Source: a virus. From it: 39,561 nt of DNA. This document shows positions 8,503 through 39,496 of the stretch, one piece after another (position 1 is the stretch's first letter; every line of letters begins with the position of its first letter). Where the stretch lies: positions 1 to 39,561 of IMG/VR virus record IMGVR_UViG_3300032004_000032; one strand, 5' to 3'. The notes beneath the pieces were generated by a model that ran no database searches, had not been told where the DNA came from, and saw only the letters and a list, made by a program, of their open reading frames with translations. Made by a program: the position numbers and the translations under genes.

Positions 8503-8915
8503 AGGCGTTTGGGTTGAAGCCAAAGCGCGCCAAGGCCATCGACCGCGAAGGCCTGGAGCAGGCCGCGCTGCTGAAGGAGGTCACCCTGCGTTACCCGGCG
8601 GCCGCGAAGCTGATCTACCACGTCCCGAACGGTGGGCACCGGCACAAGCTGGTGGCGATCAAACTGAAAGAGCAGGGCGTCAAGGCAGGCGTTCCGGACC
8701 TGGTCCTGCCCATGGCCCGCGGCGGGTATTTCGGGCTGTACATCGAATTCAAGGCCATGCCGCCGTTTGACGCCTCCGTCTCGGCCAGCCAGGACGCATA
8801 CATCCAAGCGCTGACCGAGCAAGGCTATCTCGCGATCGTCTGCCGCGGGCACATCGATGCGCTCGAAGCGATCCGGGCCTATCTACTTCAACCACCGACG
8901 AGGGTTGCGGCATGA
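8499..8915 (+). CDS. VRR-NUC domain nuclease
   Basis: HVPNGGHR...KLKEQGVKAGVPDLVLP...GLYIEFK, the PD-(D/E)xK VRR-NUC pattern; ATGA coupling at both ends. Confidence 0.7.
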   Translation: MKAFGLKPKRAKAIDREGLEQAALLKEVTLRYPAAAKLIYHVPNGGHRHKLVAIKLKEQGVKAGVPDLVLPMARGGYFGLYIEFKAMPPFDASVSASQDAYIQALTEQGYLAIVCRGHIDALEAIRAYLLQPPTRVAA

Positions 8916-10210
8916 GCAAGACCCGCGCAGTGAAGTTCAGCGATGCCGAGATCCGCCGCCAGGCTGCCGACCCGGCCGTGCATGACCTGCGCGACCCCCG
9001 TCACCCGGGCCTGTATCTGCGCTTCGGCCAGGACCGGCAACGGGGTTCCTGGTACCTGGTCAAGGGCAAGGCGTGGAAACAGATCGCACGGTTTCCTGAT
9101 TTGGGTGCGGCGGCGGTGTTGGCCGAGCTGCCCGCGTTGCGTCAGCGCCTGCTGCACGATCCATCGGCGACCGCTGCCCTGGGCGGCCTGTCCACTGTTG
9201 GCCAGTTGCTGGACTGGTACGGCGACCGAATGGCGCGCGATCGCTCGCTGTCGGCCAAGCGCAAGACCGGCGCTAAGTCGGCCATTGCCTGCCACCTGCG
9301 GCCGCGCCTGGCCAGCTTGCCCATCCGTGAAGTCTCGGCTCCGGTGCTGGACAAGCTGCTGATGTGGCCTGCTCAGGAGGTGCTGTCGCTGTCCTACGTG
9401 CGTCAGCTCTTCGGCCTGCTGGTGGTCGCGTTCCGCCAGGCGCACAAGTTGGGCCTGATCGACAGCAACCCGGTGGCCGGGCTGAAGTTCGTGGACTTCA
9501 CCAAGGCCAAGATCATGCCCAAGGCAGCCCGCCTGCGTGGTGTCCACCTGGTGGAGCTGGTACCGGCCCTGGCCGAACGATTCGAGGAGCAACCCGCCGA
9601 GGCGATGCTCGCGCTGATGATGCTGTGCCACGGGACCCGCGTTGGTGAGACTCGTATGGCGCGCTGGCCTGATATCTCCCTGGCCGATGGCGAGTGGTTC
9701 CTGCCGGCTGAGCACACCAAGACCCGCACCGAGCATCGCCTGCCACTGACGGCCCAGGCCAAGGCCCTGTTGACCCGGTACCGAGCCACCCAGATCGCCA
9801 CGGGCTATGAGGGCATCTATCTGTTCCCTTCGCGCCGTGGTCGGTCGCTGAGTGAGGGCCAGGCCAGTGCCGTGTTCACGCGTCTTGGCCAGGGTGAATG
9901 GACCAGCCACGACCTCCGCAAGGTGGCGCGCACCGCCTGGACAGACCTCGGGATCGACGGCCACATCGGCGAGATGCTGCTCAACCACTCGCTGGGCAAG
10001 ATCGCCTCGACCTACATCAACACCCAGGCCCGAGAGCAGCGGTTGAAGGCGCTGGAGAAGTGGCATGGTTGGTTAGATGAACGTGGCTTTCAGGCGATTC
10101 ACAACCTGACAGGCGCCCAATTTGAAGATTCGCATAACCCCGCGCAGGCCAGTAACGGCGCGGGCTGCACGGCTATTCCTGACATTGTTAATGGCGAGGT
10201 TTCAAGATGA
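8912..10210 (+). CDS. Second tyrosine recombinase, P4-type integrase (DUF4102-like N-terminus), apparently intact
   Basis: N-terminal LRDPRHPGLYLRFG...GSWYL. Catalytic-looking TRVGE (R), HDLRK (HxxR) and LLNHSLGKIASTY (H...Y). Start and stop both overlap neighbouring genes by ATGA. Confidence 0.8.
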   Translation: MSKTRAVKFSDAEIRRQAADPAVHDLRDPRHPGLYLRFGQDRQRGSWYLVKGKAWKQIARFPDLGAAAVLAELPALRQRLLHDPSATAALGGLSTVGQLLDWYGDRMARDRSLSAKRKTGAKSAIACHLRPRLASLPIREVSAPVLDKLLMWPAQEVLSLSYVRQLFGLLVVAFRQAHKLGLIDSNPVAGLKFVDFTKAKIMPKAARLRGVHLVELVPALAERFEEQPAEAMLALMMLCHGTRVGETRMARWPDISLADGEWFLPAEHTKTRTEHRLPLTAQAKALLTRYRATQIATGYEGIYLFPSRRGRSLSEGQASAVFTRLGQGEWTSHDLRKVARTAWTDLGIDGHIGEMLLNHSLGKIASTYINTQAREQRLKALEKWHGWLDERGFQAIHNLTGAQFEDSHNPAQASNGAGCTAIPDIVNGEVSR

Positions 10211-15319: not shown

Positions 15320-16840
15320 ATGGGGATGATTGACGATCTGTTCCCAGGGTACGCGGCCAAGCGTTCGGAGATGAGGCTGAAGAAAGCGCGCACGGACATG
15401 GCGCTTAAGATGATCGAGCGCCGCTTTGAGGGTGCTGCGGGCGGTCGCCGAAACGATGGCTGGCGCGCAACTGGCGCCGATGCCAACGTTGAAAACGCTC
15501 CGGCACTGGCCAAGCTTCGCAACCGGGCCCGCGATCAGCGCCGCAACAATCCGTTCGGTGAGCGCGGCATTACGGGGATCGCCGACAACGCTGTTGGCGC
15601 CGGCATCGTCCCACTGCCATTGGCAAAGCGCGACCGTGATGGTTTGCGACTGATGGACTTGTGGAGGGCCTGGGCCGAGACAACCGATTGCGATACCGAC
15701 GGATTGGATAATTTCTACGGCCTGCAGCACATGATCATGGAGGCAGTAGCCGAAAGTGGTGAGTGCTTGGTCCGTCGGCGCCGTCGCTTCAGTTCTGACG
15801 GTCTGCCCGTACCGGTGCAACTTCAGGTTTTGGAGGCCGACTTCCTCGACGAGTCGAAGGCGGATATCGTCGGACTCAACCGGATTATTCAAGGTGTTGA
15901 GTTCGACGCTCTTGGCCGCCGTGTTGCGTATTGGTTGTTCGATGAGCACCCAGGCGCAAACGCTGTCTGGGGTTCCCTGCAATCACGCAGGGTGCCGGCC
16001 GAGGATGTGATTCACGTCTTCCTTCGTAAACGACCAGGCCAGGCCCGCGGCTATAGCTGGTTGGCGCCGGTCATCCAGCGAATGCGCAACTTCGATGAGA
16101 TGGAAGACGCGGTAATGGAGCAGGCGAAGATCGCCTCGTGCTTCGCAGCGTTCGTCACGAAGGACGAAAACAGCGGTACGCATGGCGGTAAAAAGCCCGC
16201 GCTCATTGATCGCGTTGAGCCTGGAATCGTCCAGGAACTCGGGTTCGGCGAAAGCGTGAGCTTCGGCACACCGCCGACATTCAACGGTTACACGACGTAT
16301 TCCTGGCAACAACTGCACGCAATGGCAGTCGGCCTGGGCGTCCCGTATGAACTGCTTACCGGGGACCTCAAGGGTGTCAACTTTTCCAGTGGGCGAATGG
16401 GTTGGCTGAACTTCGCTCGTCGGGTGGACGTGTGGCAGTGGCGGATGTTGATTCCGCAATTGTGCGATCAGGTCTGGCGCTGGTTCATGGAAGCTCAGGT
16501 GCTCCTACCTGGCGGTGTGACCGATGACGTCAAAGCCTACTGGGTCCCGCCTCGTCGCGACATGGTCGACCCGAAAGCAGAAACAGAAAACGTCATCACC
16601 CGCGTGCGCAACGGCCTGACCACCTGGCCCGACGCCTTGCGCGAGCTCGGCATTACAGACCCGAAACGCCACGCCGAGCAAATCAAGAAAGCAAACGAAA
16701 TGATCGACGAGTACGGGTTGGTGCTGGATTGCGACCCGCGCCGAGTTGCAGCTGCCGGTTCCCCGAGCCAGCCATCAGCCACAGAAGAGAAAACAGACGA
16801 TGCCAACTCCGAACCAGGTGATGACACGCAAGACACATGA
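15320..16840 (+). CDS. Portal protein (lambda gpB family)
   Basis: ATG 15320 just after the gpW stop; about 506 aa; order gpA-gpW-portal. Confidence 0.8.
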   Translation: MGMIDDLFPGYAAKRSEMRLKKARTDMALKMIERRFEGAAGGRRNDGWRATGADANVENAPALAKLRNRARDQRRNNPFGERGITGIADNAVGAGIVPLPLAKRDRDGLRLMDLWRAWAETTDCDTDGLDNFYGLQHMIMEAVAESGECLVRRRRRFSSDGLPVPVQLQVLEADFLDESKADIVGLNRIIQGVEFDALGRRVAYWLFDEHPGANAVWGSLQSRRVPAEDVIHVFLRKRPGQARGYSWLAPVIQRMRNFDEMEDAVMEQAKIASCFAAFVTKDENSGTHGGKKPALIDRVEPGIVQELGFGESVSFGTPPTFNGYTTYSWQQLHAMAVGLGVPYELLTGDLKGVNFSSGRMGWLNFARRVDVWQWRMLIPQLCDQVWRWFMEAQVLLPGGVTDDVKAYWVPPRRDMVDPKAETENVITRVRNGLTTWPDALRELGITDPKRHAEQIKKANEMIDEYGLVLDCDPRRVAAAGSPSQPSATEEKTDDANSEPGDDTQDT

Positions 16841-18809
16841 GACGCCGATGCTCAGCCTGCGTGCTGCCGTGCGGCCTGGCTCGGTCGACATTGACGCGCG
16901 AACCGTTGAACTGACCTGGACAACCGGCGCTAAAGGCCGTCGCTGGTCATGGGACGTCGGCAGCTATATGGAAGAGCTTGATGTCAGCGAAGGCGCGGTT
17001 CGTCTTGATCGGCTCAACAACGGCGCGCCGCTGCTCGACACCCATAACCAGTACCAACTGAGTGCAGTACTGGCGGTTGTCGAGCGGGCATGGCTTGAGG
17101 GTGGCGAGGGCCACGCTCTGGTCCGGTTCAGCAAGCGTGATGATGCGGATGTGGTCTTCAAGGATGTCGTAGACGGCATCCTCCGAAACATCAGCGTCGG
17201 CTACGCCGTGCACCGTTACGAGGTGGTCGAGGAAGAAGACGACAAGCTCCCCACCTACCGCGCAGTCGATTGGGAGCCGCTGGAGCTCTCGCTCGTTCCG
17301 ATCGGCTTCGACGACGGCGCAAAGGTCCGTAGCGCCAAAACCCCGGCTGAGTACGAAGGCCAACGATTCAACACTATTTTTGAAGTTCGGTCGGCTCAAT
17401 CGTCGACCGTAGAACCGGCCGCCGTGCCTACTATCCAAGAGGAAGATGCAATGACCGAAGAAGAGAAGCGCGCGGCCGATGACAAGCTTCGCCGTGAAGC
17501 CGCTGACGCCGAGCGCCTGCGCAGCCTCACCATCCGCACAATGGCGCGCAAGGTGCAGCTCGATGACGAAGTGTTCGTGGAAGACCTGATTGCTCGCGGT
17601 GTTCCGGTAGCGGATGCGAGTGCAGCTCTGATCGACAAGCTGGCCGAGCGTCAAAACAAGGATCAGTCGGAAACTCGCAACAGTCAGCCGACCAATGTGA
17701 CTGGTGGCCTGGACGTTTCCGTCCTCAATGCCAAGCGCTCTGCCATGCAGAACGCGCTGCTGCATCGTTGCGACTCGAACATCAAGCTGGAAGAAACCGG
17801 CCGCGAGTTCCGCGGGATGCGCCTGGTCGACATGGCTCGCGAGTTCGTCGAGATGGCTGGAGGCAACGCTCGCGGCATGACCCCCCAGGAACTGGCCCGC
17901 GCGGCCTTGGGTTGCGACCGTCAAGCCGTTCGCGCGGCGGGCATGCACAGCACCAGCGATTTCCCGCTGCTCTTGGGCAGCACCGTCAATCGCACCCTGC
18001 GCGATGCCTACACCAACGCGCCACAGACCTGGCGTCCCTTGGGCCGTCAGACCACGGTGCCGGATTTCCGTGCCGTGACTCGCGCTGCCCTGGGCGACAT
18101 CGCTGCGTTGGAGCAGGTCAAGGAACACGGAGAATACAAATACGGCACGCTGTCCGAAGACGGTGCGCCGATCAAAGTCGCCAAGTTCGGTAAGATCATC
18201 GCCATCACCTGGGAAACCATCGTGAACGATGATCTGGGCGCCCTGACTCGCATCCCGGCAGCTCTGGGTAATGCGGCCGCTGCAACGGAGTCCAACGTGG
18301 TTTGGGCGCTGCTGCTGGGTAATCCTAACTTCACCGATGGCGTTCCGTTCTACCACGCTGACCATGGGAACCTTGCTGCCAGCGGTGGCGCAATCAACAC
18401 CACCACCTTGGCGGCCGCACGCGCTGCTATGCGCAAGCAGAAGTCGAAAGCCGGCGAGTTCCTCAACTTGTCGCCAGAGTTCCTGGTTGTCGGTCCGGAC
18501 AAAGAACTGGAAGCGTTCCAGTTCACCAGTTCGGTCTACGTGCCGGCGAAGAATGCAGACATCAACGATGTGCGCAACGCTTCTCTTACGGTAATCGTGG
18601 ACGCTCGTATCACCGGCAACCAGTGGTATCTGTTCTCGGCTCCGGGCTCCATCGATACCTTTGAATATGCCTACCTGGAAGGCGAGCAGGGCGTATTCAC
18701 CGAAACCCGCGAAGGCTTCGAAGTCGACGGCATGGAAATCAAAGCCCGCCTGGTGTTCGGCGCTGGCTGGATCGATTACCGCGGCGCTTACAAGAACCCG
18801 GGCGCGTAA
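16800..18809 (+). CDS. Prohead protease - scaffold-like linker - major capsid protein fusion
   Basis: N-terminal 200 aa are protease-like, followed by a charged coiled linker (EEDAMTEEEKRAADDKLRREAADAERL) and a C-terminal capsid-like domain of about 400 aa. No separate protease, scaffold or MCP gene. Confidence 0.7.
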   Translation: MPTPNQVMTRKTHETPMLSLRAAVRPGSVDIDARTVELTWTTGAKGRRWSWDVGSYMEELDVSEGAVRLDRLNNGAPLLDTHNQYQLSAVLAVVERAWLEGGEGHALVRFSKRDDADVVFKDVVDGILRNISVGYAVHRYEVVEEEDDKLPTYRAVDWEPLELSLVPIGFDDGAKVRSAKTPAEYEGQRFNTIFEVRSAQSSTVEPAAVPTIQEEDAMTEEEKRAADDKLRREAADAERLRSLTIRTMARKVQLDDEVFVEDLIARGVPVADASAALIDKLAERQNKDQSETRNSQPTNVTGGLDVSVLNAKRSAMQNALLHRCDSNIKLEETGREFRGMRLVDMAREFVEMAGGNARGMTPQELARAALGCDRQAVRAAGMHSTSDFPLLLGSTVNRTLRDAYTNAPQTWRPLGRQTTVPDFRAVTRAALGDIAALEQVKEHGEYKYGTLSEDGAPIKVAKFGKIIAITWETIVNDDLGALTRIPAALGNAAAATESNVVWALLLGNPNFTDGVPFYHADHGNLAASGGAINTTTLAAARAAMRKQKSKAGEFLNLSPEFLVVGPDKELEAFQFTSSVYVPAKNADINDVRNASLTVIVDARITGNQWYLFSAPGSIDTFEYAYLEGEQGVFTETREGFEVDGMEIKARLVFGAGWIDYRGAYKNPGA

Positions 18810-18832
18810 GCCTATCGTTCGAATTAAACCCA

Positions 18833-18864
18833 AAAGGGCGCCGCGTGGCGCCCTTTTCGTTTTC
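18833..18864 (+). terminator. Intrinsic terminator after the capsid gene
   Basis: aaagggcgcc-gcgt-ggcgcccttt followed by tcgttttcc. Confidence 0.75.
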
Positions 18865-33547: not shown

Positions 33548-34525
33548 CTACAGGGATTTTTTCGGCATTGTTGGTGGCTCGGCGATGTCGATTTCACGCA
33601 GTCGCAGGTAGCGCGCCGTCATCTTCGGGTCAGTGTGGCCACCAAGCTTTTGGGCGTTGTTGCCTTGCTTGTCGGTGTCGGTGAGCGACTTCGCCCTGAG
33701 GTCGTGCAGCGTTGCGCCGACAACCCCAGCCGCCTTGCAGTTGCGCTTGAAAGCGTCTTTCACTGAGCTGTAATGGACTGGCTTTCCTCCTCGAGGAGAA
33801 CAGAAAAGCGTCATCCCTCGTATTGTTCGGGGCAGCGCCTTGATGCGCGACACCAATGCTTCAAGGTCCGGGCTCATCCGAACTATGAGCCGCGCGCCGG
33901 TCTTCTGTTGTTTGAACGCAATACCCTCCTCACTGATATCTGAAAGGTGGATGGACAGCACGTCGCTGATCCGTTGGCCGGTCAGGTAGCACATCTCATA
34001 GATGACCCGCATGTTCGGGCTCGCCTTCTCGCAGATCTTCGCGAACTCAGCATCGGTGATGTACCGATCGCGCCTTTTCTCTACGTGCCGCCGGATGCCT
34101 GTGCATGGATTCGAGTCCACCATCTGGTTTTCCAAGGCGTATGCAAAGACCATCCTCAAAAACGAGATAACCCGGTTCGACATGTTCGGCGTGTTAGCCA
34201 TGTGCATTTTCAGTGCGGCGACGTGCCGCGGCAGAACATCGCGCGGCTCGAAGTCGGCCAACGCTTCCTTAAGCCTGACGGCTGCAGCTTCGTATTGCTT
34301 GACTGTGTTGGGCGACAGTTTCGGGGCCATGTACGCCAGCGCGTCGTCGATCAGCCGTCCCATTCCGCCCTGATTACCCTTGTCGATGGCCTTGGCGTAC
34401 GCGACAAGCGAGTCCTGGAAGTCCGTGCCCAGCCGAACCCACTTGCCTTTGCGCACCAGGTAATAAGCCCCGTGCTTCTGGTACATGCACGCCGGCAGGT
34501 GCCGGTCTTTCTTACGAGGGCGCAT
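33548..34525 (-). CDS. int: Tyrosine integrase (lambda-type)
   Basis: TGQRISDV (R), HDLRAKSLTD (HxxR), GHTDPKMTARYLR (H...Y); AAGGAAG SD. Confidence 0.9.
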   Translation of the reverse strand: MRPRKKDRHLPACMYQKHGAYYLVRKGKWVRLGTDFQDSLVAYAKAIDKGNQGGMGRLIDDALAYMAPKLSPNTVKQYEAAAVRLKEALADFEPRDVLPRHVAALKMHMANTPNMSNRVISFLRMVFAYALENQMVDSNPCTGIRRHVEKRRDRYITDAEFAKICEKASPNMRVIYEMCYLTGQRISDVLSIHLSDISEEGIAFKQQKTGARLIVRMSPDLEALVSRIKALPRTIRGMTLFCSPRGGKPVHYSSVKDAFKRNCKAAGVVGATLHDLRAKSLTDTDKQGNNAQKLGGHTDPKMTARYLRLREIDIAEPPTMPKKSL

Positions 34526-38176: not shown

Positions 38177-38983
38177 TTATGCGGCGTCAGTCGTCGCCGG
38201 TGAGAATGGAGAATGCTGTTGCTGCCACTCGCGGAACTTGTCCATTGCCAAGGGCTTTAATTCGGTCCAACCGGAAGGCCACCCCATCAGCCATTCGACC
38301 CACTCCGGGTTCAGTGGGCCACCTACGATTTGAGGCAGACACTCCCCCGATTTGCTCCCAGTCCTTTCCATTCGGCTCTTTCCTGGGTGCCGGTAATCGC
38401 GTCGAACCGGGGTTGGCCATAGCTTGACGGCTGCGCTCAGAACCCAGCCGGCGTTCTTGCTGCTGCCAGGCTGATTGTGATTGCCATGTACCGTTATCGT
38501 TGGCCACAAGCCAACACCGGTCGCGCTGATGGGGCGCTCCGCAGTCGGATGCTGAAACAATGCACCACTGCGCGTCATACCCCATTTCGGTAAGGTCACC
38601 GAGGACCACGGCAAGTCCTCTTCCCACAAGCAGAGGTGAGTTTTCCAAGTACGCTTTTTTGGGTCGTACCTCGCCGATGATTCGTGCCATTTCACGCCAG
38701 AGACCAGATCGTTCTCCATCGATGCCGGCGCCATTCCCGGCAGCTGATATGTCCTGACACGGGAATCCGCCAGAAACCACGTCAACAAGGCCTCGCCATG
38801 GTCTTCCGTCAAAACTGCACACGTCAGACCAAATCGGGAAAGCTGGGAGGGCTCCATCGTTCTGTCGTTGCGCCAGAACTTGTGCTGAGTAGGCATCACG
38901 CTCAACGGCGCAGACGGTGCGCCAGCCGAGGAGGTGGCCTCCGAGTATTCCGCCACCAGAGCCTGCAAACAGTGCAAGCTCAC
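38177..38983 (-). CDS. Alternative-frame ORF fully overlapping the methyltransferase (268 codons from GTG 38983; the frame is open from 39424)
   Basis: No stops. Motifs QALVAEYSE, HKFWRNDRTM, LSRFGLT, TLPKWGMTRSG, LWPTI, LWPTPVRRDY and LNPEWVEWLMGWPSGWT. Third-position GC is about 69% versus about 51% for the MTase frame (hand count, about 140 codons). Confidence 0.4.
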   Translation of the reverse strand: MSLHCLQALVAEYSEATSSAGAPSAPLSVMPTQHKFWRNDRTMEPSQLSRFGLTCAVLTEDHGEALLTWFLADSRVRTYQLPGMAPASMENDLVSGVKWHESSARYDPKKRTWKTHLCLWEEDLPWSSVTLPKWGMTRSGALFQHPTAERPISATGVGLWPTITVHGNHNQPGSSKNAGWVLSAAVKLWPTPVRRDYRHPGKSRMERTGSKSGECLPQIVGGPLNPEWVEWLMGWPSGWTELKPLAMDKFREWQQQHSPFSPATTDAA

Positions 38984-38987
38984 GCAT
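38187..38987 (-). CDS. DNA (cytosine-5) methyltransferase, short phage type
   Basis: Ordered motifs FAGSGGG (I), GGFPCQDIS (IV), LENSP (VI), APHQRDRCWLVA (VIII) and DRIKALGNGQVP (X). Confidence 0.85.
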   Translation of the reverse strand: MRELALFAGSGGGILGGHLLGWRTVCAVERDAYSAQVLAQRQNDGALPAFPIWSDVCSFDGRPWRGLVDVVSGGFPCQDISAAGNGAGIDGERSGLWREMARIIGEVRPKKAYLENSPLLVGRGLAVVLGDLTEMGYDAQWCIVSASDCGAPHQRDRCWLVANDNGTWQSQSAWQQQERRLGSERSRQAMANPGSTRLPAPRKEPNGKDWEQIGGVSASNRRWPTEPGVGRMADGVAFRLDRIKALGNGQVPRVAATAFSILTGDD

Positions 38988-39393
38988 ACTGCCCCCTTGA
39001 GTTCCGAAGCCGATTCTTTTGCGCCTCCAGCGCGTGAAGCTTTGAGTGTTCCGCGTGGCTCATCACTTCGAGATTTTCTATCCTGTTGTCCGTTTTGATC
39101 TCGTTTATGTGATGAACACATTCCAGATCCGTAATCGCTCGACCTATTTTCATTTCCATCAGCATCACATGAACCTGAATTTCCTTTCGCCCATTCGCGT
39201 AGGGATGCTTCCCGGCATACATCCGCAAATAACCGTCCTTGTCTGGACGACATTTGTATTGCTTCGACTGCGGCCCGGTCTTCTGGCCCTTGCGGCCCTT
39301 GGCATTGTTCGATTGCCGGCAGACTACTGAACAAAACTGCTGCTCTTTCCGCTTCGGCATAAATTCTTGATTGCAAAGAGGACAGATATTCAT
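38980..39393 (-). CDS. HNH endonuclease (free-standing, homing-type)
   Basis: N-terminal CPLC...C..C zinc motif plus VHHINEIKTDNRIENLEVMSHAEH (HNH). Lower GC than its flanks. Confidence 0.8.
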   Translation of the reverse strand: MNICPLCNQEFMPKRKEQQFCSVVCRQSNNAKGRKGQKTGPQSKQYKCRPDKDGYLRMYAGKHPYANGRKEIQVHVMLMEMKIGRAITDLECVHHINEIKTDNRIENLEVMSHAEHSKLHALEAQKNRLRNSRGQYA

Positions 39394-39428
39394 CGGTAAA
39401 TCTCCTCGAAAAGAGCCAGCTCATTCAT
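39390..39428 (-). CDS. 12-codon leader ORF duplicating the methyltransferase N-terminus (MNELALFEEIYR), coupled to the HNH start
   Basis: GGAGG at 39433-39437, ATG 39428, TGA overlapping the HNH ATG. ELALF is identical to MTase residues 3-7, with only synonymous differences. Confidence 0.4.
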   Translation of the reverse strand: MNELALFEEIYR

Positions 39429-39496
39429 TGATCCTCCGTGCAGCCACCGGCCTCGCCGGTTGGCGTGATTCGAGTTTGTGGGCTATTGGTTGATGG

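What the first reader, a model, noticed from the sequence alone, without database searches (positions are those of the whole stretch)
38177..38987. A complete C5-methyltransferase gene and a co-extensive 268-codon ORF in another frame of the same strand
Both ORFs are on the minus strand.

Frame A runs from ATG 38987 to TGA 38187 (266 aa). It has the full ordered C5-MTase motif set: FAGSGGG, GGFPCQDIS, LENSP, APHQRDRCWLVA and DRIKALGNGQVP.

Frame B has a GTG at 38983, 4 nt after the frame-A ATG, and ends at TAA 38177. It is stop-free over the same DNA. It reads MSLHCLQALVAEYSE..PTQHKFWRNDRTMEPSQLSRFGLT..TLPKWGMTRSGALF..GLWPTI..KLWPTPVRRDY..LNPEWVEWLMGWPSGWTELKPLAMDKFREWQQQ.

The same nucleotides (38221-38340) give WPTEPGVGRMADGVAFRLDRIKALGNGQVP in frame A and LNPEWVEWLMGWPSGWTELKPLAMDKFR in frame B.

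A hand count over about 140 codons gives third-position GC of about 69% for frame B and about 51% for frame A. So the frame with the MTase motifs lacks the GC3 excess of this genome, and the other frame has it.

From memory, the frame-B motifs resemble a recurrent prophage protein family with an MSWLFS-type N-terminus, WPTP repeats and an LNPxWVEWLMGWPxGWT C-terminus. I cannot verify that here.

A second stop-free frame of more than 260 codons at about 58% GC is unlikely by chance. Two explanations remain: a genuine overprinted gene pair, or two annotated protein families that are frame-shadows of one gene.
Basis: partly seen in the sequence, partly recalled or inferred. Interest (0 to 1): 0.85.

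Follow-up and report, generated by a model that had tools for sequence, protein, structure and literature searches.

The report
Two-frame phage cytosine methyltransferase gene
One stretch of phage DNA is read in two frames to make the two halves of a DNA cytosine methyltransferase. This design was previously documented in a single enzyme (M.EcoHK31I), but here it appears in thousands of phage and prophage genes where annotation records only one of the two proteins.

Summary
On the minus strand, frame A (38987-38187, 266 aa) is a C5-methyltransferase. Frame B is stop-free over the same DNA, and it in fact runs from ATG 39424 (415 aa, MSWLFS...).

This is not chance. Frame B is open from 4 nt after the frame-A start to the gene's end in 80/80 homologous loci (gene GC 47-69%), where at least 36 stop-creating synonymous changes were expected.

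Selection switches frame along the gene:
- Frame A is constrained over motifs I-VIII and motif X.
- Frame A evolves neutrally (dN/dS about 0.9) across a roughly 70-codon "filler".
- Frame B is near-neutral for its first ~100 codons.
- Frame B is constrained (dN/dS 0.2-0.5) from there through the variable region and an LNPEWVEWLMGWPSGWT block that aligns, weakly, with motif IX.

So frame A encodes the catalytic large domain and frame B the small domain. Each reads through the other's coding region as filler. The closest precedent is M.EcoHK31I, whose beta chain lies in another frame inside alpha.

In this window an HNH homing-endonuclease gene (39393-38980) is inserted after codon 7. It carries a recoded replacement 5' end and is itself stop-free in frame B (P about 1e-4).

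No expression data exist, so translation of frame B is inferred.

The parts
38187..38987 (-). Frame A ORF ('alpha'), 266 aa plus TGA. It consists of the C5-MTase large domain, a filler, and motif X.
   Evidence: ORF list. PF00145 E=1e-30 over residues 2-179. Matches M.HhaI residues 13-170, E=2e-12. phrog_363, E=6e-64.
38177..39424 (-). Frame B ORF ('beta'), 415 aa from ATG 39424 (MSWLFS). The part co-extensive with alpha starts at GTG 38983 (268 aa).
   Evidence: 2525 homologues. phrog_1008 at 2.7e-20 and phrog_26627 at 1.6e-15. Open in 80/80 loci.
38493..38987 (-). Alpha catalytic part (motifs I-VIII, A codons 1-165). Selection acts on frame A here, and frame B mostly reads it as filler.
   Evidence: Nucleotide diversity is highest at A position 3. 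A dN/dS is 0.10-0.22. B dN/dS is 0.75-0.78 over codons 3-110.
38528..38689 (-). Doubly constrained segment. Alpha motifs VI-VIII overlap beta residues ~99-152 (WHESS..WKTHLCLWEEDLPWSSVTLPKWGMTRSG..ERPI).
   Evidence: A dN/dS 0.19-0.24 and B dN/dS 0.48-0.55, with both confidence intervals below 1.
38283..38492 (-). Alpha filler (A codons 166-235), which is the beta variable region (LWPT..WPTP.. up to motif IX). Selection acts on frame B only.
   Evidence: Diversity is highest at B position 3. A dN/dS 0.87-0.91 with CI including 1; B dN/dS 0.32-0.33. Alpha model pLDDT is below 35 for residues 168-235. Frame A is nevertheless kept stop-free: 1 stop in 62 loci against 2.1 expected per locus.
38264..38314 (-). 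LNPEWVEWLMGWPSGWT in frame B, a motif IX-like block and the most conserved DNA of the gene.
   Evidence: Diversity 0.13/0.14/0.30. B dN/dS 0.19-0.22. The only hhalign local alignment to the M.HhaI family falls on motif IX (RKLHPRECARVMGYP), P=0.03.
38190..38267 (-). Alpha motif X region (DRIKALGNGQVPRVAATAF...), overlapping the beta C-terminal tail (ELKPLAMDKFREWQQQHS).
   Evidence: A dN/dS 0.26-0.32; B dN/dS 0.45-0.58, with both CIs below 1. The beta tail motif is kept in distant phages.
38980..39393 (-). HNH homing-endonuclease gene (137 aa), inserted after codon 7 of the methyltransferase gene.
   Evidence: PF13392 E=4e-11. phrog_7545. No insertion here in most of the 80 genome loci; a few carry other inserts or remnants. 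Present at the same site in L083-L085. Stop-free in frame B: 7.0 stops expected, P=1e-4.
39390..39428 (-). Old 5' end of alpha, now a 12-codon leader (MNELALFEEIYR*). Its TGA overlaps the HNH ATG (ATGA).
   Evidence: Sequence. The same layout occurs in L083/L084.
39433..39437 (-). Shine-Dalgarno GGAGG, 4 nt before the old alpha ATG (39428) and 8 nt before the beta ATG (39424).
   Evidence: Sequence. The same arrangement is seen in most of 77 loci.
38980..38997 (-). 3' junction of the cassette: AGGGGG-cagt-ATGCGTGA. It holds an SD-like site, the new alpha ATG (38987), the in-frame-B GTG (38983) and the HNH TGA (38982-38980), followed by a recoded copy of codons 1-7 (MRELALF).
   Evidence: Sequence. 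The RELALF variant marks cassette-bearing or cassette-scarred loci.

Best explanation
The locus encodes a two-polypeptide DNA (cytosine-5) methyltransferase from one stretch of DNA read in two frames.

Frame A (alpha) supplies the catalytic large domain: motifs I-VIII at the N-terminus and motif X at the C-terminus. These are joined by a ~70-residue filler, which is simply the out-of-frame reading of the other gene.

Frame B (beta) normally starts at an ATG 4 nt downstream of the alpha start and uses the same ribosome-binding site. It first reads ~100 codons of filler, the out-of-frame reading of the catalytic domain. It then encodes the variable (target-recognition) region and a motif IX-like block, which in ordinary C5-MTases form the small domain.

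Shown here: both frames are kept open, each is under purifying selection in complementary segments, and the beta ATG is conserved.

Inferred: alpha and beta associate to form the active enzyme, as was demonstrated for M.EcoHK31I.

In this window a free-standing HNH homing-endonuclease gene has invaded the very conserved 5' end. It is translated by coupling to a 12-codon remnant of alpha, hands ribosomes on to a recoded alpha start, and is kept free of stops in frame B. Beta can therefore still be made from the original ATG (415 aa) or from GTG 38983.
For: (1) Openness. Frame B is open in 80/80 loci from +4 to the gene end, across Pseudomonas, Acinetobacter, enterics, Halomonas, beta-proteobacteria and MAGs. 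The third frame has 6-31 stops. At least 36 stop-creating synonymous events were expected in codons 2-160 and none was seen, P<=3e-16. Frame A is likewise kept open through the filler: 1 stop in 62 loci against 2.1 expected per locus.

(2) Frame-switching selection. Positional diversity peaks at A3 in the N-terminal part, at B3 in the middle, and at A3 again at the end. OLGenie-style dN/dS gives A 0.10-0.22 / B 0.75-0.78 for codons 3-110, A 0.22 / B 0.55 for 111-158, A 0.91 / B 0.33 for 159-222, A 0.84 / B 0.19 for the motif IX block, and A 0.26 / B 0.45 for motif X. Results are the same when the alignment is built on frame A.

(3) Start codons. A codon 2 is AAT in 70/77 loci and never AAC, which creates the beta ATG. 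Elsewhere in these genes Asn is AAC 159: AAT 58. The alpha start is ATG 35, GTG 28, TTG 4 and a non-start codon in 10.

(4) Depth. Both frames are open in distant phages, including Vibrio phage 1.236.O (GC 0.48) and Pseudomonas phages Shamal and phPA-G. In L091, a 420-aa WPTP-repeat protein overlies an open MTase frame. The beta C-terminal region has 13,223 cluster representatives at E<=1e-3. Of 10 long hits tested, none carries a full catalytic domain in frame; one has only a short PF00145 fragment.

(5) Domain logic. Alpha matches PF00145 and M.HhaI only up to motif VIII, and its filler is predicted disordered. In M.HhaI and M.HaeIII the small domain is the variable region plus motif IX (PMC3404938).

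(6) Precedent. The M.EcoHK31I beta chain is encoded entirely in another frame of the alpha gene, carries motif IX, and is required for activity (PMC2836561, PMC3404938).

(7) HNH genes inserted in this gene stay open in the host's frame B: window P=1e-4, L083/L084 P=0.008, L085 open, and a different HNH in L082 P=1e-4.
Against: - There is no direct evidence of translation of frame B (no proteomics or ribosome profiling).
- Beta has no Pfam, NCBIfam or PDB sequence match.
- The AlphaFold model of beta is poor (mean pLDDT 45), so its fold could not be compared with a small domain.
- The link to motif IX is weak: hhalign P=0.03, probability 1.6%, and no signal against M.HhaI alone.
- Constraint on the first ~100 beta codons is marginal (0.75-0.78; CI touches 1). 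The real beta start could therefore be internal, as the internal Met codons of the M.EcoHK31I beta allow.
- Three MAG loci have a stop in the alpha filler.
- The literature places the TRD of M.EcoHK31I in alpha, not beta.
- I could not obtain the M.EcoHK31I sequence to test homology.
- Loci are phylogenetically related, so the P values are approximate.
Confidence: 0.75

Rival explanations
1. Beta is a real, translated overprinted protein, but its function is unrelated to methylation (for example a regulator or an anti-defence factor). On this view alpha alone is the methyltransferase.
For: Beta has no detectable similarity to known domains and no confident fold. The motif IX link is weak. NCBI annotates alpha alone as the methyltransferase.
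Against: Alpha lacks any conserved sequence between motifs VIII and X: dN/dS is about 0.9 and pLDDT is below 35. C5-MTases need a variable region and motif IX for DNA recognition (PMC3404938). The beta-constrained part sits exactly where that region should be. The M.EcoHK31I precedent also argues against this (PMC2836561).
Confidence: 0.13
2. A single-chain enzyme is made by two programmed ribosomal frameshifts: A to B (+1) after motif VIII, and B to A (-1) before motif X, for example at the conserved A_AAG in TTAAAG. On this view the full-length ORFs are incidental.
For: The mosaic of selection (A, then B, then A) is what such a product would need. An A_AAG tetranucleotide lies at the B-to-A switch; that this is a known -1 slippery motif is my own knowledge and was not tested.
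Against: - Frameshifting does not require frame B to be open over the first 160 codons, nor a conserved beta ATG, nor frame A to be open through the filler. All three are under selection.
- Both frames are constrained on the same nucleotides in two segments.
- The beta tail after the putative shift site is conserved in distant phages.
- No conserved +1 site was seen at the first junction.
Confidence: 0.07
3. Frame B is a non-translated shadow ORF. The database 'family' would then exist only because gene callers pick the wrong frame of a conserved gene.
For: - The first ~100 residues of frame B behave almost like a shadow: amino-acid diversity is 0.48 against 0.51 for the non-coding third frame.
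- All frame-B entries are automatic 'hypothetical' calls.
- Several phage records annotate only frame B.
Against: - Stops are avoided at P<=3e-16.
- Frame B shows dN/dS of 0.2-0.5, with B3 the most variable position in the middle of the gene.
- The ATG is conserved against codon bias.
- Frame B stays open even through inserted HNH genes.
Confidence: 0.03

Closest known systems
M.EcoHK31I (E. coli HK31; recognises YGGCCR), a heterodimeric C5-methyltransferase (Lee, Kam & Shaw 1995, as described in PMC2836561 and PMC3404938)
   Same: - Alpha carries motifs I-VIII and X.
[quoted passage not shown]
- The N-terminal part of beta is dispensable. This parallels the near-neutral first ~100 codons of frame B here.
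   Different: - Here beta is co-extensive with alpha. It starts 4 nt after the alpha start on the same ribosome-binding site, and ends 10 nt after the alpha stop. The M.EcoHK31I beta is described as a smaller chain lying entirely inside alpha (PMC2836561; from memory, about 176 aa in a 309-aa alpha).
- Selection places the whole variable region in beta, whereas the literature assigns the TRD of M.EcoHK31I to alpha.
- This gene sits in a temperate phage with no restriction partner identified (neighbouring genes only partly examined).
- Sequence homology to M.EcoHK31I was not tested.
M.AquI (Agmenellum quadruplicatum), a two-subunit C5-methyltransferase
   Same: It is a natural split of a C5-MTase into two polypeptides within the variable region (PMC3404938).
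   Different: In M.AquI the alpha subunit has motifs I-VIII and the beta subunit has IX-X, as two separate subunits (PMC3404938). In the window, motif X is in the alpha frame and the two ORFs overlap completely. An AquI-like arrangement arises only in L081/L082, where an HNH insertion of length 1 mod 3 moves motif X into the beta frame.
Monomeric C5-methyltransferases (M.HhaI, M.HaeIII; Pfam PF00145)
   Same: The catalytic motifs are the same and in the same order. The domain logic is the same: the large domain is I-VIII plus X, and the small domain is the variable region plus IX.
   Different: Here the small domain is not in the same reading frame as the large domain. The stretch of frame A between motifs VIII and X is unconstrained filler.
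Free-standing HNH homing endonuclease genes of phages (intron-less homing)
   Same: The HNH ORF is inserted into a highly conserved target gene. It is flanked by a recoded duplicate of the target, and it is absent from most homologues.
   Different: The inserted gene is translationally coupled on both sides. It is also kept stop-free in an alternative frame, so that a host polypeptide can read through it. I know of no description of this.

Membership tests
C5 cytosine DNA methyltransferase (PF00145), monomeric type | Motifs I (FxGxG), IV (PCQ), VI (ENV), VIII (QxRxR) and X (GNxVP) occur in this order in one polypeptide. | tested here: met
   Frame A has FAGSGGG, GGFPCQDIS, LENSP, HQRDR and GNGQVP. 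PF00145 E=1e-30. M.HhaI match at 2e-12.
C5 cytosine DNA methyltransferase (PF00145), monomeric type | A conserved variable region (TRD) and motif IX lie between motifs VIII and X in the same polypeptide. | tested here: not met
   Frame A residues ~166-235 have dN/dS 0.87-0.91 and pLDDT below 35. The Pfam match stops at profile position 177 of 324.
M.EcoHK31I-type alpha/beta C5-methyltransferase | Alpha carries motifs I-VIII and X. | tested here: met
M.EcoHK31I-type alpha/beta C5-methyltransferase | Beta is encoded in an alternative reading frame of the alpha gene. | tested here: met
   Frame B ORF 38177-38983/39424. It is conserved in 80/80 loci. It is under its own purifying selection.
M.EcoHK31I-type alpha/beta C5-methyltransferase | Beta carries conserved motif IX. 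| tested here: inconclusive
   LNPEWVEWLMGWPSGW aligns with M.HhaI LHPRECARVMGYPDSY. This is the only hhalign local alignment, but it is weak (P=0.03, probability 1.6%). There is no hit with M.HhaI alone or with the PDB or Pfam searches.
M.EcoHK31I-type alpha/beta C5-methyltransferase | The TRD is located in alpha (as stated in PMC2836561 and PMC3404938). | tested here: not met
   The region between motifs VIII and IX is constrained in frame B and neutral in frame A.
M.EcoHK31I-type alpha/beta C5-methyltransferase | Both polypeptides are required for methylation. | not testable with these tools
   This needs frame-specific stop mutants and complementation.
M.EcoHK31I-type alpha/beta C5-methyltransferase | Sequence homology to M.EcoHK31I alpha and beta. 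| not tested
The original paper is not held, and the later paper has no supplement held.
M.AquI-type split methyltransferase | Motif X lies on the same polypeptide as motif IX, and alpha ends in the variable region. | tested here: not met
   In the window, motif X is in frame A and motif IX is in frame B. The feature is met only in L082, after an HNH insertion.
Programmed-frameshift gene | The zero frame closes soon after a conserved slippery site, and the alternative frame is not needed upstream of it. | tested here: not met
   Both frames are open end to end, and this is maintained by selection.
HNH homing endonuclease gene (free-standing) | It has an HNH catalytic motif. It is inserted in a conserved gene whose homologues lack it. 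The target sequence is duplicated or recoded at the junction. | tested here: met
   PF13392 at 4e-11. Absent from most of the 80 loci; a few carry other inserts or remnants at this site. Present in L083-L085. MNELALF is duplicated as MRELALF with synonymous recoding.
HNH homing endonuclease gene (free-standing) | It cleaves the uninterrupted allele and spreads by homing. | not testable with these tools

The most novel reading that the evidence does not exclude
A very large and almost entirely unannotated class of phage and prophage C5-methyltransferases is built as two completely overlapping genes.

- The DNA-recognition small domain (WPTP-repeat variable region plus motif IX) is a separate polypeptide, translated from the +1 frame.
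- In this clade, that polypeptide starts 4 nt after the start of the catalytic subunit.
- Each protein carries the other's coding region as a tolerated filler.

The widespread 'MSWLFS / DFPAS...WPTP...LNPxWVEWLMGWPxGWT hypothetical protein' families would then be the missing specificity subunits. Homing endonuclease genes that invade these genes would be selected to stay open in the host's second frame.
Probability: 0.55. Interest if true: 0.75.

Novelty: new variant of a known kind. Interest (0 to 1): 0.62.

Why it matters
- **Annotation.** Current pipelines call only one of the two frames. RefSeq calls alpha only, and several phage GenBank records call only beta, as 'hypothetical'. As a result, thousands of methyltransferases are recorded without their probable specificity subunit, and a large 'hypothetical protein' family has no assigned function.
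- **Generality of the design.** Heterodimeric C5-MTases are treated in the literature as two isolated exceptions (PMC3404938). These data suggest the overprinted design is a common phage solution.
- **A model for overlapping genes.** The locus is an unusually clean natural example. Functional and filler segments alternate between frames, with ~50 and ~20 codon stretches under double constraint.
- **Homing targets.** The doubly constrained, near-invariant DNA may explain why homing endonucleases target this gene at its 5' end and at the motif IX block.
- **Tool design.** It is relevant to split-methyltransferase tools for targeted methylation, which were built on M.EcoHK31I.

Tried and rejected
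- **AlphaFold of beta** (63-sequence alignment) gave mean pLDDT 45. This is too poor for a fold search, so no structural test of 'beta = small domain' was possible. The alpha model scored pLDDT 55 and was useful only for showing the disordered filler.
- **Profile search of beta against PDB sequences:** no hit at E<=10.
- **Pfam on 63 beta members and NCBIfam:** nothing relevant.
- **A hand-made A-B-A chimera** did not extend the PF00145 or M.HhaI match beyond motif VIII.
- **hhalign of the beta alignment against M.HhaI alone:** no signal.
- **P0115** (442 aa) first looked like a natural protein with beta and motif X in one frame. This was rejected: it results from an HNH gene of length 1 mod 3 inserted in the motif IX block.
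- **P0241** (167 aa) looked like a naturally short beta. This was rejected: the gene is cut by the contig end.
- **Group I/II intron as carrier of the HNH genes:** no Rfam match in the window or in L082/L083/L085.
- **The original M.EcoHK31I paper** (PMC306636) is not held, and no supplement is held for PMC2836561.
- **E. coli complete genomes:** only 4 of 5426 carry a close relative.
- **Within-gene synonymous permutation** gives only P about 0.06 per locus, because the codon pool is already depleted of stop-forming codons. The event-count test was used instead.
Full report
**1. What is in the sequence**

On the minus strand, frame A runs from ATG 38987 to TGA 38187 (266 aa). It carries C5-methyltransferase motifs I, IV, VI, VIII and X in order. 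It matches PF00145 (E=1e-30) and M.HhaI (2e-12), but only as far as motif VIII.

Frame B is offset by +1; its GTG 38983 lies 4 nt after the frame-A ATG. It has no stop down to TAA 38177.

However, the frame-B ORF actually begins at ATG 39424 (MSWLFS...) and is 415 codons long. Between 39393 and 38980, in the third frame, lies a 137-aa HNH endonuclease gene (PF13392, 4e-11).

The window is a temperate tailed phage, with terminase, head-protease, sheath, tape measure and two integrases.

Measured GC3 is 0.67 for frame B and 0.54 for frame A. But B position 3 is A position 1, so the GC3 argument is not decisive. Both frames have intermediate profiles, which is what two superimposed codes would give.

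**2. Both translations have large families**

- Frame B has 2525 database relatives, all unnamed or 'hypothetical', with no Pfam domain and starting MSWLFS.
- Frame A has more than 8000 relatives annotated as DNA cytosine methyltransferase.
- Where both come from the same contig, identity to the window is about the same in each frame: 69/68, 67/67, 64/57 and 57/65 %. A passive shadow frame would not behave this way.
- PHROGs holds frame B as phrog_1008 ('DNA methyltransferase') plus phrog_26627, and frame A as phrog_363.

**3. Frame B is kept open by selection**

I fetched 80 genomic loci: Pseudomonas, Acinetobacter, enterics, Halomonas, beta-proteobacteria and MAGs, with gene GC 0.47-0.69.

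- Frame B is open in 80/80, from the fifth nucleotide of the gene to within ~80 nt of the frame-A stop.
- The third frame has 6-31 stops.
- Frame A is broken in 4 loci.

In A codons 2-160, 6.6% of frame-A-synonymous single-base changes would create a frame-B stop. At least 542 synonymous codon changes are visible among 77 loci (2131 on a minimum spanning tree). So at least 36 stops were expected and none is present (P<=3e-16).

The reverse also holds. In the middle block, frame A has 1 stop in 62 loci, where permuting frame-B synonymous codons predicts 2.1 per locus.

**4. Selection switches frame along the gene**

On an alignment of 76 loci, nucleotide diversity peaks at different positions along the gene:

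| Region (frame-B codons) | Diversity pattern |
|---|---|
| 1-160 | Highest at A position 3 |
| ~177-224 | Highest at B position 3 |
| LNPEWVEWLMGWPSGWT block | Low at all three positions (0.13/0.14/0.30) |
| Tail | Highest at A position 3 again |

An OLGenie-style estimate (dNN/dSN for frame A, dNN/dNS for frame B) gives:

| Frame-B codons | Frame A dN/dS | Frame B dN/dS |
|---|---|---|
| 3-110 | 0.10-0.22 | 0.75-0.78 (CI reaches 1) |
| 111-158 | 0.22 | 0.55 [0.38-0.79] |
| 159-222 | 0.91 [0.67-1.20] | 0.33 [0.23-0.49] |
| Motif IX-like block | 0.84 | 0.19 |
| Motif X region | 0.26 | 0.45 [0.24-0.97] |

Sliding windows place the onset of frame-B constraint near codon 99. Rebuilding the alignment on frame-A proteins gives the same picture, so the result is not an alignment artefact.

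AlphaFold agrees for frame A. The catalytic part is folded, and residues 168-235 have pLDDT below 35.

**5. Translation starts**

A codon 2 is AAT in 70 of 77 loci and never AAC, which creates the frame-B ATG (NTGAATGAG). Elsewhere in the same genes Asn is AAC 159: AAT 58.

The frame-A start is ATG in 35 loci, GTG in 28, TTG in 4, and not a start codon at all in 10. A GGAGG-type Shine-Dalgarno sequence typically lies 4 nt before the A start and 8 nt before the B ATG.

Both proteins therefore appear to be initiated from one ribosome-binding site. This explains why frame B has to stay open across the catalytic domain even though that part is nearly neutral at the protein level.

**6. Interpretation**

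In M.HhaI and M.HaeIII the large domain comprises most motifs (I-VIII and X). The small domain comprises the variable region and motif IX (PMC3404938).

Here the large domain is in frame A, and the constrained part of frame B lies exactly where the small domain should be. LNPEWVEWLMGWPSGW resembles motif IX (M.HhaI LHPRECARVMGYPDSY). The only hhalign local alignment between a diverse frame-B profile and the M.HhaI family falls there, but weakly (P=0.03).

This is the architecture described for M.EcoHK31I. [quoted passage not shown] The N-terminal 42 residues of that beta are dispensable (PMC2836561). M.EcoHK31I and M.AquI are cited as the only two-polypeptide C5-MTases (PMC3404938).

The differences here are:
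- Beta is co-extensive with alpha and starts 4 nt after it.
- The variable region is read in the beta frame.
- The gene is a phage gene.

I could not obtain the M.EcoHK31I sequence, so homology is untested.

**7. Breadth**

Frame-B homologues occur in 36 phage genomes, including Salmonella, Pseudomonas, Acinetobacter, Vibrio, Ralstonia, Stenotrophomonas, Microcystis and Porphyromonas phages.

In Vibrio phage 1.236.O (GC 0.48) and in Pseudomonas phages Shamal and phPA-G, both frames are open. GenBank annotates frame B there as 'hypothetical protein'.

phmmer of frame-B codons 150-262 against 1.84 billion cluster representatives finds 13,223 clusters at E<=1e-3. Of ten long hits, none contains a full catalytic domain in frame.

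A 420-aa 'WPTP-repeat' protein (P0335) overlies a completely open MTase frame with a ~280-codon filler. Its N-terminal FQEDFPASHFP is the out-of-frame reading of motif IV, SGGFPCQPFS.

**8. The HNH insertion in this window**

Most homologues read ATGAATGAGCTGGCTCTTTTCGCAGG... without interruption. In the window the layout is as follows:

- The sequence after CTTTTC is followed by the HNH gene.
- The old start is left as a 12-codon leader (MNELALFEEIYR*), whose TGA overlaps the HNH ATG.
- The HNH TGA overlaps a new alpha start (ATGCGTGA), preceded by AGGGGG.
- Codons 1-7 are supplied again in recoded form (MRELALF).

The HNH gene has no stop in frame B, where synonymous permutation predicts 7.0 (P=1e-4). 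The same holds in L083/L084 (HNH 71-74% identical, P=0.008) and in L085 (48% identical; frame-B ORF 625 aa).

A different HNH gene, inserted in the motif IX block of L081/L082, is also open in the host frame (P=1e-4). Because its length is 1 mod 3, it moves motif X into the beta frame, giving an M.AquI-like split.

Both insertion sites are the most invariant DNA of the gene. No intron model matches.

**9. Rivals**

- **Double programmed frameshift making a single chain.** This fits the mosaic of selection. It does not explain the conserved beta ATG, the open frame B upstream, the open frame A in the filler, or the double constraint on the same nucleotides.
- **Non-translated shadow ORF.** This is contradicted by sections 3-5.
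- **Beta translated but with a function unrelated to methylation.** This cannot be excluded without experiments. It leaves alpha without any conserved recognition region.

**10. Limits**

- There are no expression data.
- The beta fold could not be predicted (pLDDT 45).
- The motif IX assignment is weak.
- The P values ignore phylogenetic structure beyond the event-count correction.
- The true beta start in this window (ATG 39424 or GTG 38983) is unresolved.

**Verdict.** It is best explained as an M.EcoHK31I-like two-polypeptide methyltransferase in a co-extensive, phage-borne and apparently very widespread variant. In this window it is additionally invaded by a homing endonuclease gene that respects the second frame.

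Noticed in passing
window 38980-39428 (-): An HNH homing-endonuclease cassette is inserted after codon 7 of the methyltransferase gene. It is translationally coupled on both sides (ATGA and ATGCGTGA overlaps). It carries a synonymously recoded copy of codons 1-7. It is stop-free in frame B, where 7 stops were expected (P=1e-4).
   Followed up: yes
L081 3001-4333 / L082 1129-2457 (HNH ORF at L082 1973-2362): A different 129-aa HNH gene is inserted inside the motif IX block of a homologous methyltransferase. It is also open in the host frame (P=1e-4). It shifts motif X into the beta frame, producing a 442-aa 'beta + motif X' protein (P0115) and an M.AquI-like split.
   Followed up: partly
L065 2420-3001; L052 2864-3001; L007 1167-1202: There are further invasions or scars at the same 5' site.
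- L065 has an Endo VII/HNH-type nuclease inserted after MNELALFAGAG, which brings its own MSWLIS start.
- L052 has a 137-nt remnant of an HNH cassette, with frame B still open.
- L007 has a 35-nt duplication.
The 'RELALF' 5' variant marks such loci.
   Followed up: partly
L035 130-900, L043 1442-2200, L065 3001-3800: Three MAG loci have a single in-frame stop in the frame-A filler. A Met codon follows soon after, and frame B is intact. These may be alpha split into two pieces, or decaying genes.
   Followed up: no
L091 2441-3800: A 420-aa WPTP-repeat 'hypothetical protein' overlies an uncalled, fully open C5-MTase frame with a ~280-codon filler. The gene caller reported only the beta frame.
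   Followed up: partly
L081 636-2359: A diversity-generating-retroelement-like pair (bAvd plus reverse transcriptase RVT_1) lies just upstream of the methyltransferase in that prophage.
   Followed up: no
L082 2586-2664 (+): There is an Rfam match to Proteo-phage-1 RNA (RF03044, 46.9 bits, E=6e-6) just downstream of the methyltransferase gene.
   Followed up: no
window 8912-10210 (+) and 33548-34525 (-): Two integrase-family ORFs (phrog_1, E about 1e-46 to 1e-48) occur in one 39.6-kb phage contig.
   Followed up: no
window 16746-18809 (+) / 16947-18833 (-): A 629-codon antisense ORF lies opposite the major head-protease gene. Its GC profile (0.71/0.44/0.66) mirrors the sense gene, so it is probably an ordinary high-GC shadow ORF.
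   Followed up: no
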